64,000 bases of DNA from Tubulanus polymorphus. Lineage: Eukaryota > Animalia > Nemertea. The translations under genes were made by a program, and so were the position numbers. Location: the NCBI RefSeq assembly GCF_964204645.1, contig NC_134026.1, positions 3,123,950-3,187,949 on the forward strand, read 5' to 3'. Of the stretch, positions 9,138 through 40,771 are shown piece by piece; the stretch's first letter is position 1; every line of letters starts with the position of its first letter. The notes under the pieces were generated by a model. That model was not told the DNA's origin. It did not search any database and saw only the letters and a list, made by a program, of their open reading frames with translations.

Positions 9138-10928
9138 ATGTCTTCAGGAAAACGTCCCGAGCATCAAGCCCCGCCTGAAATAGTATGTATGACTGAAATA
9201 AATTAATGAAATTGAAGAAATACTTGCGTTACTACTTACTACACTCTAGAATTACGTACTGCTTATCAATGTACTATTGTTTACACCTTTTACTTCTAGT
9301 TTTATAATGAAAGTGAAGCTCGAAAGTATACGTCAAAGTAAGTTGAAAAATGAACATGTTATTTCAAGTGCCACATAATTCAATACACTACACATCAAAC
9401 AGACTCCAAACATCTATAAAACTCTTACTTCTTTTCAATTTCAGTTCACGTATGATTGAAATACAACAGAAATTATCAGAGAGAGCGATAGAATTGTTAG
9501 CACTTCCTGATGATGTGCCTTGTTTAGTGTTAGATATAGGGTCTGTAACTATCTTATATCACCCGGTATGAATCAATGAATCAACTTCAATCGATGATAC
9601 TTGTTTTATCTGCGTTGTTTTTTATTTCTAGATGCGGTTCTGGATTAAGTGGAGAATGTTTGACCGATCAAGGCCACATTTGGGTTGGAATGGATATTAG
9701 CTCTGATATGTTAGGTAAATAAACACCGACGAATCCTAGTCTAAAACTTATAGATCCAACAGTTTCATTACCGGTAGATAATGATATTCATCATTTGCTG
9801 TTTGTATTACGTGTTTAGATATAGCTGTTGAGAGAGAAGTGGAAGGTGATCTGATTTTAGCCGATATGGGTTATGGCATGCCATATAGACCAGGATCTTT
9901 TGATGGTTGCATCAGGTATGATACTGCTTGAAATACTTGTCAAATAGAAATGTTACATGCACCCAAATTGATTAAGAAAACTAACTAATTATTCATTGCA
10001 GTATCTCGGCGCTACAGTGGCTTGGTAATGCTGATAAGTCGTATCATAATCCAGCTAAGAGACTGTACAAGTTCTTTTCAACACTTTATGCTACGTTGGT
10101 ATGGATTAATAACTAAGTGTATTGCTGAAAGAAATTCAGATTCCTATTGCATTTCAAATTTACTTCATTGTTATTTCAGGCAAGAGGAAGTAGAGCTGTG
10201 TTCCAGTTGTATCCTGAAAGTAGTTCTCAGGTAATTTGTTAATCTCTTATATTATAGGGTGTTCTTTCCTCGCTTTGTGTATGACATCACTCTTTTTGCT
10301 CATCTTTTTATAGTTAGAACTGATAACACAGCAGGCAATGAAAGCAGGTTTCACTGGTGGTCTCGTTGTTGACTATCCAAATAGTTCAAAAGCTAAAAAG
10401 TGAGCGAAATTCAAAGACAATTGTACTCATACAACATAATGATTAACACATATCTCGATTTTCCTGTATCAAAAAACATCTGAGCGTATCGAGAGTTGAC
10501 ATGCTGTTGTTTTCTTTCAGAATGTTTCTTTGTCTGTTAACTGGTGGTCAGACACAGTTACCTGCTGCATTAGGAACGGAAGCTAGTCAAAGTCAATCAA
10601 ACCAGATATCTTTCACTAATAAAAGGTACCATTTTTGATAGTCTACAAACAAATTTGATGAAATATTCCATTTTGATTTTTATACAAATGCGATATATAT
10701 GTTAACAGGGAGAAAATGAAGAAGATTCGAGGGAAACCTCCAAAGAAATCTCGCGATTGGATTTTAGAGAAAAAGGAAAGGCGCAGACGTCAGGGAAAGT
10801 AAGTTTATTCAGATATAGATCATATATCGGGAGATTCTGTGTAATAACATCAAAACATTATTGATAATTTTAGGGAAGTGAGAGACAACAACAAATACAC
10901 TGGAAGAAAAAGGAAGAATGCTTTCTAA
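9138..10928 (+). CDS. BUD23: 18S rRNA (guanine-N7) methyltransferase BUD23/WBSCR22, 11 exons
   Basis: Spliced translation [122 protein letters not shown]. All introns GT-AG. Confidence 0.95.
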
Positions 10929-12698
10929 TAGTAGAATGTATACTTTTATATTGTAAATATCAATGATAAATGGAAAAAAAATGGAAGTGAAATATGTATT
11001 CTTCTGTTTGTTTTGTATTGGATTCTCAATTTCGGAGCTGCTTCAGATGTTGAAGAGTTTCAATATTTCAGGAGTTTTTGAAGTGATCAATGTTGTAGTA
11101 GTGGTTGGACAGTCGACAGTAATGCACAATCAGGGGACCTCAGTGTTAGCAAATATTGATATGTGACGATGACTTAGCCGAATATATGGAAAAATATATG
11201 GTAACCAACTATAGTCGATTTTGACCGAAGATCTTTATTCCGTTCGTGCCAAAAGCTATAGTTCGTTAATTCAGTCATGGAGGTCTCTCGTACCTGTTTA
11301 TGAGGTCCAATACAATCATAGAATATAAAAAAGAAATATCGAGTATGGTTTGCACCCTACTTTGGATTGGGCTGTGTATGTAGAACTGGCTGAAGAAGCG
11401 ATTTCCTTCAAAATTCTCAAAACGACAACAAAATAGTTTCATTCATTCTACATGATTATAACTGTTTATTAGTGGTCTTTCTATTCACATGATAATGCTT
11501 ACAATTTGTACAGAGAGAGCAGTGAATATGTACATACACAGCAACTTGCACAACATAACAGGAATAGTTGAAAAAAATATCTTGGTCAACGGCAAACGCT
11601 ACTAAATCGCGCCAACGAATTATGGCATTGCTTCGTCACCAAGATATATAGTCATGATTAAAATTCTATCAGTAAAAAACATTCAAACTAAATGATACCT
11701 CGTATGCTTAGAGAGGGAAAGTCTGGAATGAGACAAAACTCTTCTGGGCCAGTTTTTAAAAAGGTAATAAGCGCTTGAAGAGGAAATGAGAAGGAATATA
11801 ACGTTCATTAACAGGTTATATATCATCACCACAGTCAACAAACGTGTTTCTAACAACAAAATTTTAACGGAATTGTATTGCTTATAAGTCTTTTTAAAAA
11901 CTTAATAAATAAAAGGACATTTTTGTAGTCCAAAAAAATGTACATAGATTTGTAAAAATGCGTGAAACAACAAGCGATATTCAATGAAAGATTAATCCGC
12001 GTTCAACAGGCGATTCACATGATAAGAAAACTGTGGATGAAGATATTTGTATTTGCTACTTATTCCTTTATTCAAAATGACTAAGTCGTTGAAACAATGA
12101 CTACACGAACTAACTACGAAAACATGAATAAAATCAGAAGAAACTCAAAAGTTATTTGGGATCAGGGAATATAGAGATATGCCTCAAACCAGTGAAACTT
12201 TTAGCCCATGATACAAAATATTTCTAATCTCAAATATCTGCACTACATGGATATGTTACACATGTATGATTATAATGTGATATAATAGTATTAATAATAA
12301 TAATGATAATAATAATCATATAATTATTAATGATGATAATATTGAAATGTGTTATACATTATTGTTACTGATCGATAAAATAGCATATTAAAGTATAAAA
12401 AATCTCTATTTTTACAAACACCTCTGTAAAAGTTGAACGCCCATCTAATTTATAGTACAGAATCAAATCAGAATTTACACAATGTTTTAAACATGCACAG
12501 TCATTACATAATTCTGCAACACAGGACTCCCATAAAGAATTTTCACGAACTTTGGTTTTTAAGTATAGTCAACCTTCGATATACCATCTACATCGGATTT
12601 TCAGGGTTTTGGCTGTATAGAGAATGTAGCGGGTTAATTTTCTGACTAGTTCCAAGACAAAATGCAGATGTTCCACACTTTGACGTGGAGAATAGATA

Positions 12699-12910
12699 AT
12701 AAGTTTAAAACATTCTGATTAAAAAGAAGAATAAAAGCGAATTTCATTCATCAAAAATTAAAAACAAAAGGACACGAAGTTTTGAACTCTCGCTAGAGAT
12801 CATCGTCTTCTCTAGCGAGAGTTCAAAACTTCGTGTCTGATTTTAACCTGTAATAAATAAAAATCGCTTTCACTCTTTTAAACTTTGTATATAGCGGATT
12901 TTAAACTTAT
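12699..12910. repeat. Fold-back element with a perfect 29-bp inner stem
   Basis: 12771-12799 is the exact reverse complement of 12809-12837 (9-nt loop). Decayed outer arms ataagtttaaaa/ttttaaacttat and aaagcga/tcgcttt. Confidence 0.8.
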
Positions 12911-38676: not shown

Positions 38677-39330
38677 TAAGTAGATGGGTTTCTTATATCG
38701 ATCGACATCTATGTGAAGACGGTTCTATATCTTCCAAAAAGTTACCATAGTGTAAATATATCTTTGAGTTTTAGTCAAGTAATTTCACGAACATGTTCGT
38801 TCTTTAAATCGTTGAAATATTTTACTTTCTTACGGTCGCAGTTCTGGTCAAACAACATTCTGCTCGTTCACTCGATTTTGTTGGGCCATTTTCTAAATTA
38901 TGCTGTTAAACAATGTTGTCAAGTTGCCTTGTGTGTTCTTATTCAATTCATTTTGTCCATTTCCATTGATAATTCACCACTACTCCACGCAGTGACCTTA
39001 AAAATTTGACTTTCAACCCCTCGACTAAATAATTTTTGTCAATCAATGTGAATGTCTGTCTTTGACCCACGGCACACAGCCATAGTCTCCTTGGATACAT
39101 TTTTTCAATCAATTCAAGTCCAAAAATCAGAGTTCCCCATCTAGCTAGGCTTGCACTTTTAACTGAGGTATTGATAGCTGAAGAATTTTAATCTTGGTTT
39201 TAAATACAATTGTTGTAGGATGGTTGACAGTTTTTTTTGTTGTATCTCACCATATATTCCATGAATGCACAATTTATAATAATCAAGTTGTTTTCTTATT
39301 TCAGAATCATATCTACTTTAATTTGTAATC

Positions 39331-40771
39331 ATGTCACTAGCTCCCTGTCAAGAGGGTCACTCCGGTCACGAATTTGCTGCTACTTTTAAGGTATTTTTAT
39401 TTATCTTACGGTTCCCTGCGGATGTCTCTCGTTTCCTATTTGCCAAAAATGTTAAATCAAATTTAAATCATTCGTTTCAGCTTGTCTTAGTTGGAGATGG
39501 TGGTGTTGGTAAAACCACCTATGTAAAACGTCATTTAACCGGTGAATTCGAAAAGAAATATATCGGTAAGGAGTTCAATTCAATGAAAGTCTTGGCTCGT
39601 ATTGTAATGTCCGCATGCGATGAAGTCAATTAGATTGAATGTTGAATTTCAGCAACACTCGGTGTAGAGGTTCATCCGTTAGTATTCAACACAAGTAGAG
39701 GTTGTATCAGATTCAATGTATGGGATACAGCTGGCCAGGAAAAATTTGGTGGACTTCGAGATGGTTACTATATTCAAGGTAAAATTGCAAGCATAGAATA
39801 CTAACTACGACTAACCTAAGATAGTTTTCTTTAATGTCGGGCCTTCAACTAGCCTATTTGGGTGTAAGCTTAGAGGTTTGATAAGGCTTGTTTGCCAGCT
39901 CAGTCGGCAATTGTGAGCGACTCTCGGAAAGTACGCATGTCAAATTAGGATTTGTTGAATGCCGAACAGTGATGGAAAAATGGAATTTGAAAAGTTTTTG
40001 GTTAAAGAAATAACTGAAATGATTTGTTAAGGCAGTGCATTTGTACCCAATGTGGTTGGGTCTGATTTTAACCAGAAAGAATAGCACAAAACCTAGTGTT
40101 CGTTAGTACGCGTACTGCTGAATTCAAATATAGCTGTATAAATGTCAACTGATTTCAGGACAATGTGCGATAATCATGTTCGATGTCACGTCCAGAGTTA
40201 CGTATAAAAATGTACCGAACTGGCATCGCGATTTGGTGCGCGTGTGCGAAACTATACCGATCGTTCTTTGCGGAAACAAGGTCGACATCAAAGATAGGAA
40301 GGTCAAGGCCAAATCCATAGTGTTTCATCGAAAGAAGAATTTACAGGTAAAACTTTACTGCTGTTACTAAAAAAAAGCTCATTTTATCTCGATACTTTTC
40401 TGTTTGTTAGCCAGAATGTCGATTTAATGATTTCTTGTGATACCGAGATCGGCGTTTGATTGTTTGATTTTCAGTACTACGATATCAGCGCAAAGAGTAA
40501 CTACAACTTTGAAAAACCGTTCCTGTGGTTGACCAAAAAATTAGTCGGCGATCCAAATTTAGAATTCACGGTTATGCCAGCTTTGCTTCCACCTGACGTT
40601 ACTATGGATCCTAAGCTTATTCAACAATGTGAAAATGATCTAAAAGTATGTAGATTGTAGTCGATGTTGAAAATGTTTTAATATCTTGTTGAAAGTTGTT
40701 ATATTTACAATTCCCTCTCTTTTCAGGAAGCACAATTGAACGAGTTACCCGATGATGATGACGAATTTTAG
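39331..40771 (+). CDS. RAN: Ran GTPase, 6 coding exons
   Basis: Exons 39331-39390, 39481-39565, 39653-39778, 40159-40346, 40475-40645, 40727-40771. Motifs [48 protein letters not shown] and acidic tail [14 protein letters not shown] at 41669. Confidence 0.97.

What the first reader, a model, noticed from the sequence alone, without database searches (positions are those of the whole stretch)
9138..40771. BUD23 -> <- syntaxin | Ran -> block joins two human gene pairs
Seen: BUD23 is tail-to-tail with syntaxin, and syntaxin is head-to-head with Ran. Known (human gene order from memory): BUD23/WBSCR22 is the convergent neighbour of STX1A in the Williams-Beuren region (7q11.23), and RAN is the divergent neighbour of STX2 (12q24.33). 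Inference: this is an ancestral bilaterian three-gene block, split by reciprocal loss after vertebrate genome duplications, possibly held together by the shared STX/Ran promoter and abutting 3' ends.
Basis: partly seen in the sequence, partly recalled or inferred. Interest (0 to 1): 0.7.

Follow-up and report, generated by a model that had tools for sequence, protein, structure and literature searches.

The report
Ancient BUD23–syntaxin–Ran three-gene block
In this ribbon-worm genome three unrelated genes sit side by side (BUD23, syntaxin-1, Ran), likely an ancestral animal arrangement that vertebrate genome doubling split into BUD23–STX1A and STX2–RAN; the syntaxin–Ran half is already published, and the BUD23 half, which record numbers suggest clams also keep, was not found in my searches.

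Summary
The layout is real: BUD23 (+, 9138-10928), syntaxin-1 (-, 38235-16877) and Ran (+, 39331-40771). The spliced proteins match RefSeq records of the nemertean Tubulanus polymorphus. Published coordinates give STX2 and RAN divergent in human, and Stx1a and Wbscr22 convergent in mouse. The syntaxin–Ran half is already in print (Irimia 2012 as cited by Coppola 2018), reaches back to cnidarians, and in gar and arowana Ran stayed beside both Stx2 and Stx3. The BUD23 half was not found in print. Record numbers place BUD23 within 2-4 entries of syntaxin-1 in 5 of 7 molluscs and 0 of 8 arthropods, so the three-gene block is likely ancestral to bilaterians. No second genome was shown to hold all three genes. 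The proposed constraints are weak. The BUD23 and syntaxin stop codons are 5.9 kb apart, and a catfish gene model implies the two genes lie on one strand. A shared syntaxin/Ran promoter region is plausible here (1.1 kb, CpG-rich) but untested. Verdict: a modest extension of a known conserved pair.

The parts
9138..10928 (+). BUD23/WBSCR22 18S rRNA m7G methyltransferase, 11 coding exons, 280 aa
   Evidence: (PF12589); same sequence as XP_074643287.1
16877..38235 (-). Syntaxin-1-type Qa-SNARE; constant exons 38203-38235, 36736-36819, 36544-36643, 30262-30336, 30074-30147, 25915-25988, 25377-25514, 25040-25150
   Evidence: spliced joints
28039..28147 (-). Syntaxin exon 6a: duplicate of exon 6, 109 nt, same phase, AG/GT ends; likely mutually exclusive with 6b
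   Evidence: same type in isoform records of Lineus, scallops, clam, abalone, octopods, flatworms; tree
27602..27710 (-). Syntaxin exon 6b: canonical form, 109 nt, 25 of 36 residues shared with 6a
   Evidence: joints 27710-30074 and 25988-27602 skip 6a
22510..22593 (-). Alternative last exon 1 (membrane anchor)
   Evidence: used in RefSeq isoform X1, P0121
20660..20740 (-). Alternative last exon 2 (membrane anchor); contigs continue from it to at least 17,797
   Evidence: joint 20740-25040 and contig pieces; RefSeq isoform X2
16877..16954 (-). Alternative last exon 3 (membrane anchor), predicted; the one nearest BUD23
   Evidence: matches anchors of related syntaxins, best E 1.8e-9
15474..15818 (.). 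High-copy repeat lying between the BUD23 and syntaxin coding ends
   Evidence: very high depth and many loose ends in all four runs
38315..39311 (.). Gap between the outermost syntaxin and Ran contig ends; candidate shared promoter region, core about 38380-38680 (CpG o/e 2.3); candidate non-coding Ran first exon ending at the GT donor 38676
   Evidence: function inferred, motif names recalled
39331..40771 (+). Ran GTPase, 6 coding exons, 224 aa; contigs continue to 41,689

Best explanation
BUD23, syntaxin-1 and Ran lie in the order BUD23-> <-syntaxin | Ran-> in this nemertean, likely the arrangement of the bilaterian ancestor, which vertebrate genome duplications likely copied and thinned so that STX1A kept BUD23 while STX2 and STX3 kept Ran. 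Shown: the layout here, the mammalian orientations, and the published syntaxin–Ran pair. Inferred from record numbers: BUD23 beside syntaxin-1 in clams. Inferred mechanism: the two links are likely not equal. Syntaxin–Ran is likely held by one compact upstream region serving both genes in invertebrates (1.1 kb here). BUD23 likely just stays attached in slowly rearranging genomes, with no need for touching 3' ends or a fixed orientation. The most economical vertebrate history (inferred, untested): after the first doubling one copy lost Ran (ancestor of STX1A/1B) and the other lost BUD23 (ancestor of STX2/3); the second doubling and later losses gave today's pairs.
For: Gene models and identity to RefSeq records. 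Human STX2(-)/RAN(+) divergent; human order Rimbp2–Stx2–Ran2–Adgrd1 in S3 Fig text of PMC6177115; mouse Stx1a(+)/Wbscr22(-) convergent, sites 14.7 kb apart. Ran–Stx1 in Nematostella, Lottia, Saccoglossus and Branchiostoma, Ran1–Stx3 and Ran2–Stx2 in gar and arowana (PMC6177115). Record-number proxy: control T. polymorphus gap 1; 7 of 7 molluscs have both proteins on a record of the same length; 5 of 7 within 2-4 numbers (Mactra 2, Sinanodonta 2, Potamilus 3 on a 3.5-Mb scaffold, Dreissena 3, Mya 4); chance per species about 0.4-1.6% for 500-2000 genes per chromosome. Catfish model P0477 fuses BUD23 to a syntaxin-1A-type N-half, so the two are neighbours there too. 5'-5' pairs are the most common and best-kept class of ancient pairs (PMC3514665).
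Against: No second genome was shown to hold all three genes. The five supporting species are all bivalves and not independent; Liolophura (gap 37) and Mercenaria (gap 479) are unclear; gaps of 2-3 locus tags allow 1-2 models in between; orientation cannot be read from accessions. 0 of 8 arthropods show the link (4 on records of different length, one of these possibly two assemblies; 4 with gaps of 304-7029). 0 of 80 metagenome syntaxin loci held BUD23 or Ran, though most are transcripts or short contigs. The BUD23 link was not tested in annelids, echinoderms, amphioxus or cnidarians. The tree in S2 Fig of PMC6177115 appears, from its text layout, to group invertebrate Stx1 with STX1A/1B apart from STX2/3; read literally that does not make STX2/3 ohnologues of STX1. 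That 7q11.23 and 12q24 are duplicate regions is recalled; one search gave no paper for it. Promoter sharing has no expression or start-site data here.
Confidence: 0.75

Rival explanations
1. Both links are under selection: a shared syntaxin/Ran promoter and touching or overlapping BUD23/syntaxin 3' ends (or syntaxin regulatory elements inside BUD23) hold all three genes together.
For: BUD23 stays beside syntaxin in a nemertean, likely in bivalves, in mouse and in a catfish. No other gene was seen between BUD23 and the last anchor exon (ORF lists). Several AATAAA signals on the syntaxin strand lie at 11,234-12,067, so a long 3' UTR of the last anchor exon could reach BUD23.
Against: Stops are 5.9 kb apart with a high-copy repeat between. 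The spliced isoform seen uses the anchor at 20740, 9.7 kb from the BUD23 stop. The catfish fused model implies same-strand orientation, and a second teleost paper lists 'BUD23' under SNARE interactions, a hint of the same fusion (PMC11047736 passage). Link not seen in 8 of 8 arthropods.
Confidence: 0.15
2. All three genes are neutral leftovers of slow genome rearrangement; neither link has a function.
For: Retention of ancient pairs tracks overall genome conservatism: 448-492 kept in amphioxus and Lottia against 12 in nematodes and 46 in flies (PMC3514665). The links are absent in mite and other arthropod-type metagenome loci. In human the STX2 and RAN starts are about 33 kb apart (recalled), too far for one core promoter. 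Vertebrate STX1A and STX1B lost Ran.
Against: Ran stayed beside a syntaxin on both duplicate loci in gar and arowana and in every lineage surveyed by PMC6177115. The gap here is short and CpG-rich with clustered promoter-type motifs (motifs chosen after seeing the sequence).
Confidence: 0.3
3. The two mammalian pairs have separate origins: syntaxin–Ran is ancient, while BUD23 came beside a syntaxin twice, in spiralians and in vertebrates.
For: BUD23 link untested in invertebrate deuterostomes and cnidarians; evidence outside the window is indirect.
Against: Same partner, same side and same orientation in nemertean and mouse; chance about 1e-3 to 2e-2 for one neighbour (from figures).
Confidence: 0.05

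Closest known systems
Ran–Syntaxin conserved microsyntenic pair (Coppola et al. 2018, PMC6177115, citing Irimia et al. 2012, PMC3514665)
   Same: Same two genes adjacent: Ran–Stx1 in invertebrates, RAN–STX2 in human; regulatory or functional linkage already proposed.
   Different: That paper has 0 mentions of BUD23/WBSCR22 in text or in 6 of 7 supplementary files searched. Here BUD23 is a third member on the far side, tying the STX1A locus to the same ancestral block. No nemertean was surveyed there. Irimia's pair table could not be read and may already list BUD23–STX.
Conserved ancestral microsyntenic pairs (CAMPs), co-regulated 5'-5' class (PMC3514665)
   Same: Unrelated genes, head-to-head, short gap in this genome.
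   Different: Co-expression and shared elements untested; the BUD23 link is 3'-3' and appears to change orientation in a teleost.
Vertebrate STX3A/STX3B and STX2 splice forms (alternative SNARE-end and anchor exons; recalled and named in earlier scan notes)
   Same: One syntaxin gene with duplicated internal exons and several alternative membrane-anchor exons.
   Different: Here the duplicated exon is exon 6 (end of the Habc domain and start of the linker), not exon 9; no second exon 9 was found in the window.

Membership tests
Conserved ancestral microsyntenic pair: syntaxin–Ran | Non-paralogous genes adjacent in four or more major animal lineages | tested here: met
   Adjacent here and in human; cnidarian, mollusc, hemichordate, amphioxus reported in PMC6177115
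Conserved ancestral microsyntenic pair: BUD23–syntaxin | Non-paralogous genes adjacent in four or more major animal lineages | tested here: inconclusive
   Three lineages: nemertean (direct), bivalves (record-number proxy, 5 of 7 molluscs), vertebrates (mouse coordinates, catfish fusion); 0 of 8 arthropods
Conserved ancestral microsyntenic pair: BUD23–syntaxin | Orientation conserved | tested here: inconclusive
   Convergent here and in mouse; same-strand implied by one automated catfish model; not readable in bivalves
Bidirectional promoter pair | Divergent starts within about 1 kb | tested here: inconclusive
   Contigs reach 38,314 (syntaxin) and 39,312 (Ran), 997 bases apart, but contigs cannot show starts
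Bidirectional promoter pair | One element drives both genes; correlated expression | not testable with these tools
   Only assembled contigs available; no reporter or start-site data
Ohnologous blocks split by differential loss | The vertebrate syntaxin loci derive from whole-genome duplication | tested here: inconclusive
   Stx2/Stx3 loci assigned to duplication at the vertebrate stem in PMC6177115; STX1A versus STX2 region paralogy is recalled (search 77 gave nothing); their tree appears to group invertebrate Stx1 with STX1A/1B
Syntaxin-1 type Qa-SNARE | N-peptide, Habc domain, SNARE motif, C-terminal anchor; closest to syntaxin-1 | tested here: met
   PF00804, PF05739; best solved relatives syntaxin-1A, E 1e-120
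Mutually exclusive exon pair (6a/6b) | Tandem homologous exons, same length and phase, frame broken if both or neither are used | tested here: met
   Both 109 nt, phase 0 to 1, AG/GT ends, 80 of 109 bases alike
Mutually exclusive exon pair (6a/6b) | Each exon used alone in transcripts | tested here: inconclusive
   6b alone spliced in two studies' contigs; 6a use seen only as isoform records and transcripts of other species

The most novel reading that the evidence does not exclude
This locus preserves the pre-vertebrate syntaxin-1 neighbourhood intact, and its flanking genes settle that STX1A/1B and STX2/3 are the two products of the first vertebrate genome doubling (one copy keeping BUD23, the other Ran). 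The single spiralian gene reaches the same diversity by splicing: an unreported exon-6 switch, shared by nemerteans, molluscs and flatworms, swaps the helix and linker start around the Munc13 contact site to give differently regulated syntaxins, with parasitic flatworms keeping only the derived form.
Probability: 0.3. Interest if true: 0.6.

Novelty: new member of a known kind. Interest (0 to 1): 0.36.

Why it matters
It adds a third gene to a known ancient pair and links the Williams-Beuren STX1A locus and the STX2–RAN locus to one ancestral site. That gives a gene-order test of how the vertebrate plasma-membrane syntaxins arose, where the protein tree is ambiguous, and a clear prediction for lamprey and hagfish. 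It does not reveal a new mechanism: hundreds of such ancient pairs are catalogued. The duplicated exon 6 may matter more to synapse biologists working on molluscs and flatworms, if its use proves tissue-specific.

Tried and rejected
No whole genome was held for this window. Irimia 2012 supplements not readable; supplements of PMC8040251, PMC9977687 and PMC6746723 had no hits for the gene names; the supplements of PMC7269912 were only listed. Two look-ups of a mouse Williams-region paper failed. Metagenome scan: 80 of 166 syntaxin stretches kept, none with BUD23 or Ran; only 9 loci exceed 10 kb and they look like mites, other arthropods and oligochaetes by sequence type, so this is weak. Sequencing runs: no holder is on record as RNA; X4, X5, X6 and X7 show spliced joints, X2 and X3 showed none among the listed rows. 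No joint into exon 6a or into the anchors at 22593 and 16954 appeared among the rows shown, but 20 and 17 rows were hidden and contigs drop rare forms, so this is no evidence of absence. The bacterial promoter scan does not apply to an animal. The protein atlas gave no answer. Alignments A1 and A3 were poorly aligned and not used. One mouse row puts a 'Stx2' site on +, at odds with the human rows; I did not use it. A second copy of exon 9 or exon 7 was looked for in the window and not found. Earlier scan notes: nothing by place, sequence or the synteny words.
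Full report
Observation. BUD23 has 11 exons on the + strand (9138-10928) and gives a 280-residue protein. Syntaxin has a 10-exon frame on the - strand starting at 38235, and Ran has 6 coding exons on the + strand (39331-40771). Every intron is GT..AG. Pfam and solved structures agree: WBS_methylT and Bud23, Syntaxin and SNARE with syntaxin-1A as best match, Ran. The syntaxin and BUD23 proteins are the same sequences as RefSeq XP_074643286.1 and XP_074643287.1 of the nemertean Tubulanus polymorphus. Public contigs show spliced joints for the syntaxin path through exon 6b and the anchor at 20740, for all five Ran coding introns and for the last two BUD23 introns.

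Mammalian side. A supplementary table of PMC8324879 (rows seen) places human STX2 exons on - at chr12:131.275 and 131.286 Mb and RAN exons on + at 131.358-131.361 Mb, so they diverge. It places mouse Stx1a on + at chr5:135,049,980 and Wbscr22 on - at 135,064,714, so they converge. These rows do not show whether a gene lies between. The human order Rimbp2–Stx2–Ran–Adgrd1 is in the S3 Fig text of PMC6177115. A passage of PMC12141689 describes a deletion from STX1A onwards that spares BUD23, which fits adjacency. The human 7q11.23 strands are recalled. A rough calculation puts a double match by chance at 4e-7 genome-wide or 4e-4 inside one linkage group.

What is already known. PMC6177115 (abstract, first 10,000 characters, passages and supplements seen) reports the Ran–syntaxin pair, crediting Irimia 2012. 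It finds Ran beside Stx1 in Nematostella, Lottia, Saccoglossus and amphioxus, beside STX2 in human, beside Stx3a in zebrafish, and beside both Stx2 and Stx3 in gar and arowana. So this half is known, predates bilaterians, and was kept on two vertebrate copies. The paper does not mention BUD23. PMC3514665 (abstract, passages and part 2 of 7 seen) does not name syntaxin in its text; its pair table could not be read and may list BUD23–STX. Searches found no paper describing BUD23 beside syntaxin in invertebrates; the two hits of one search were read as passages and do not. Most subscription journals are outside this library.

Test of the BUD23 link. No animal genomes could be browsed, so I used a proxy: for species with both proteins in my searches, compare the length of the record that holds them and the gap between accession or locus numbers. 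The control, T. polymorphus, gives a gap of 1. Among molluscs, 7 of 7 have both on a record of equal length and 5 of 7 lie within 2-4 numbers: Mactra 2, Sinanodonta 2, Potamilus 3, Dreissena 3 (GenBank numbers; 28-38 in RefSeq numbers), Mya 4. Liolophura (37) and Mercenaria (479) are unclear. Chance for a gap of 4 or less is about 0.4-1.6% per species, but the five are all bivalves. Among arthropods 0 of 8 are close: Periplaneta, Anabrus, Ceratina and Cryptotermes have records of different length, and Planococcus, Polyergus and two Daphnia have gaps of 304-7029. The species set is whatever reached the best 120 rows of both searches; annelids, brachiopods, amphioxus and hemichordates appeared only in the syntaxin table. 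Ran could not be tested this way. A catfish (Bagarius) model fuses a near-complete BUD23 to the N-half of a syntaxin-1A-type protein, which shows adjacency but implies the same strand. Nemertean plus bivalves plus vertebrates brackets the link to the bilaterian ancestor, by inference.

How it likely works. The head-to-head gap is short: syntaxin contigs reach 38,314 and Ran contigs 39,312. The stretch 38,400-38,699 has CpG o/e 2.3 and carries NRF1-like, ETS, CRE and YY1-type words (names recalled). All four occurred together in 0 of 5000 resamples, but I chose them after seeing the sequence. A shared upstream region is therefore plausible here, in line with the enrichment of 5'-5' pairs among ancient pairs, yet untested, and the human starts are tens of kilobases apart (recalled). 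The tail-to-tail side shows no tight coupling: the nearest stops are 5.9 kb apart, a high-copy repeat lies between, the spliced isoform seen uses an anchor 9.7 kb from BUD23, and the catfish model implies a flip. A second teleost paper lists BUD23 under SNARE interactions, a hint of the same fused model. A long 3' UTR from the last anchor exon is not excluded. I read BUD23 as a passenger. For vertebrates, the simplest history is loss of Ran from the STX1A/1B ancestor and of BUD23 from the STX2/3 ancestor after the first doubling. This is inference; the published tree appears to group invertebrate Stx1 with STX1A/1B (read from text layout), which slow evolution of STX1 could explain but which I did not test.

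Syntaxin exon 6 is duplicated: 28039-28147 (6a) and 27602-27710 (6b), both 109 bases, same phase, 25 of 36 residues alike. Using both or neither breaks the frame. Among 177 exon-6 segments in the proteins fetched, 45 are a-type, 125 b-type and 7 unclear. Both types occur as records of one species in Lineus, Mizuhopecten, Argopecten and Octopus vulgaris. The a-type also occurs in Mercenaria, two abalones, Argonauta, Octopus bimaculoides and Macrostomum. The classifiable hits from parasitic flatworms are all a-type; no named arthropod, nematode or deuterostome hit is. A tree of 28 segments splits a from b with support 94/96, on only 36 columns and with groups defined by one of those columns. The exon matches residues 120-155 of the solved syntaxin-1A chain 9ojz_G and so includes R151 and I155, which contact Munc13 (PMC8728020 passages); both are kept in 6a and 6b, while neighbours differ. 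Searches (listings only) showed no study of it; automatic annotations already hold both forms. Three alternative anchor exons follow exon 9.

Verdict. Observation confirmed; interpretation partly supported. One half is published, the other looks unreported and is backed by indirect but consistent evidence. The kind of thing, an ancient gene pair or block thinned after genome duplication, is well known. Interest 0.36.

Noticed in passing
window 27602-28147 (-): Duplicated syntaxin exon 6 (6a/6b), likely mutually exclusive; a-type shared with Lineus, scallops, clam, abalone, octopods and flatworms, and the only type among classifiable parasitic-flatworm hits. Covers the end of the Habc domain and the Munc13 contact residues.
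   Followed up: partly
window 16877-22593 (-): Three alternative membrane-anchor exons (acceptors 22593, 20740, 16954); a fourth, apparently decayed, anchor-like stretch near 24361-24465.
   Followed up: partly
P0008, P0009, P0012 (Lineus longissimus records): Lineus syntaxin has two forms of exon 9 (SNARE C-half), like vertebrate STX3A/3B; the window has only one.
   Followed up: partly
P0477 (Bagarius yarrelli): Gene model fusing BUD23 to the N-half of syntaxin-1A, implying same-strand order in this catfish.
   Followed up: partly
window about 46,500-56,400 (+): MED15 follows Ran (Pfam Med15_M and Med15_C). Human MED15 is at 22q11, recalled as part of the same duplicated region set as 12q24 and 7q11.23; a possible fourth member.
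   Followed up: no
window about 4,600-8,481 (-) and 1,643-4,001 (+): A GPI ethanolamine-phosphate transferase-like gene (PIGG-like, label recalled; weak PF01663) is head-to-head with BUD23, ATGs about 660 bases apart, where human has DNAJC30 (recalled). An MFS transporter (PF13347, MFSD13A-like, recalled) is tail-to-tail with it. Their human counterparts (4p16, 10q24, recalled) belong to a different region set, hinting at a linkage-group junction.
   Followed up: no
window 1-1,160 (-): Start of another gene, head-to-head with the MFS transporter; no Pfam match for the ORF tested.
   Followed up: no
window 61,914-64,000 (+): 695-residue open frame in a 54% GC stretch, Arg/Ser-rich, no Pfam match; likely a mobile element.
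   Followed up: no
window 15,474-15,818: Very high-copy short repeat, also abundant in the spliced runs.
   Followed up: no
L065, L066, L071, L076, L078-L080: Intron-rich syntaxin loci whose single exon 6 mixes a-type and b-type residues; possibly a paralogue derived from the a form.
   Followed up: no
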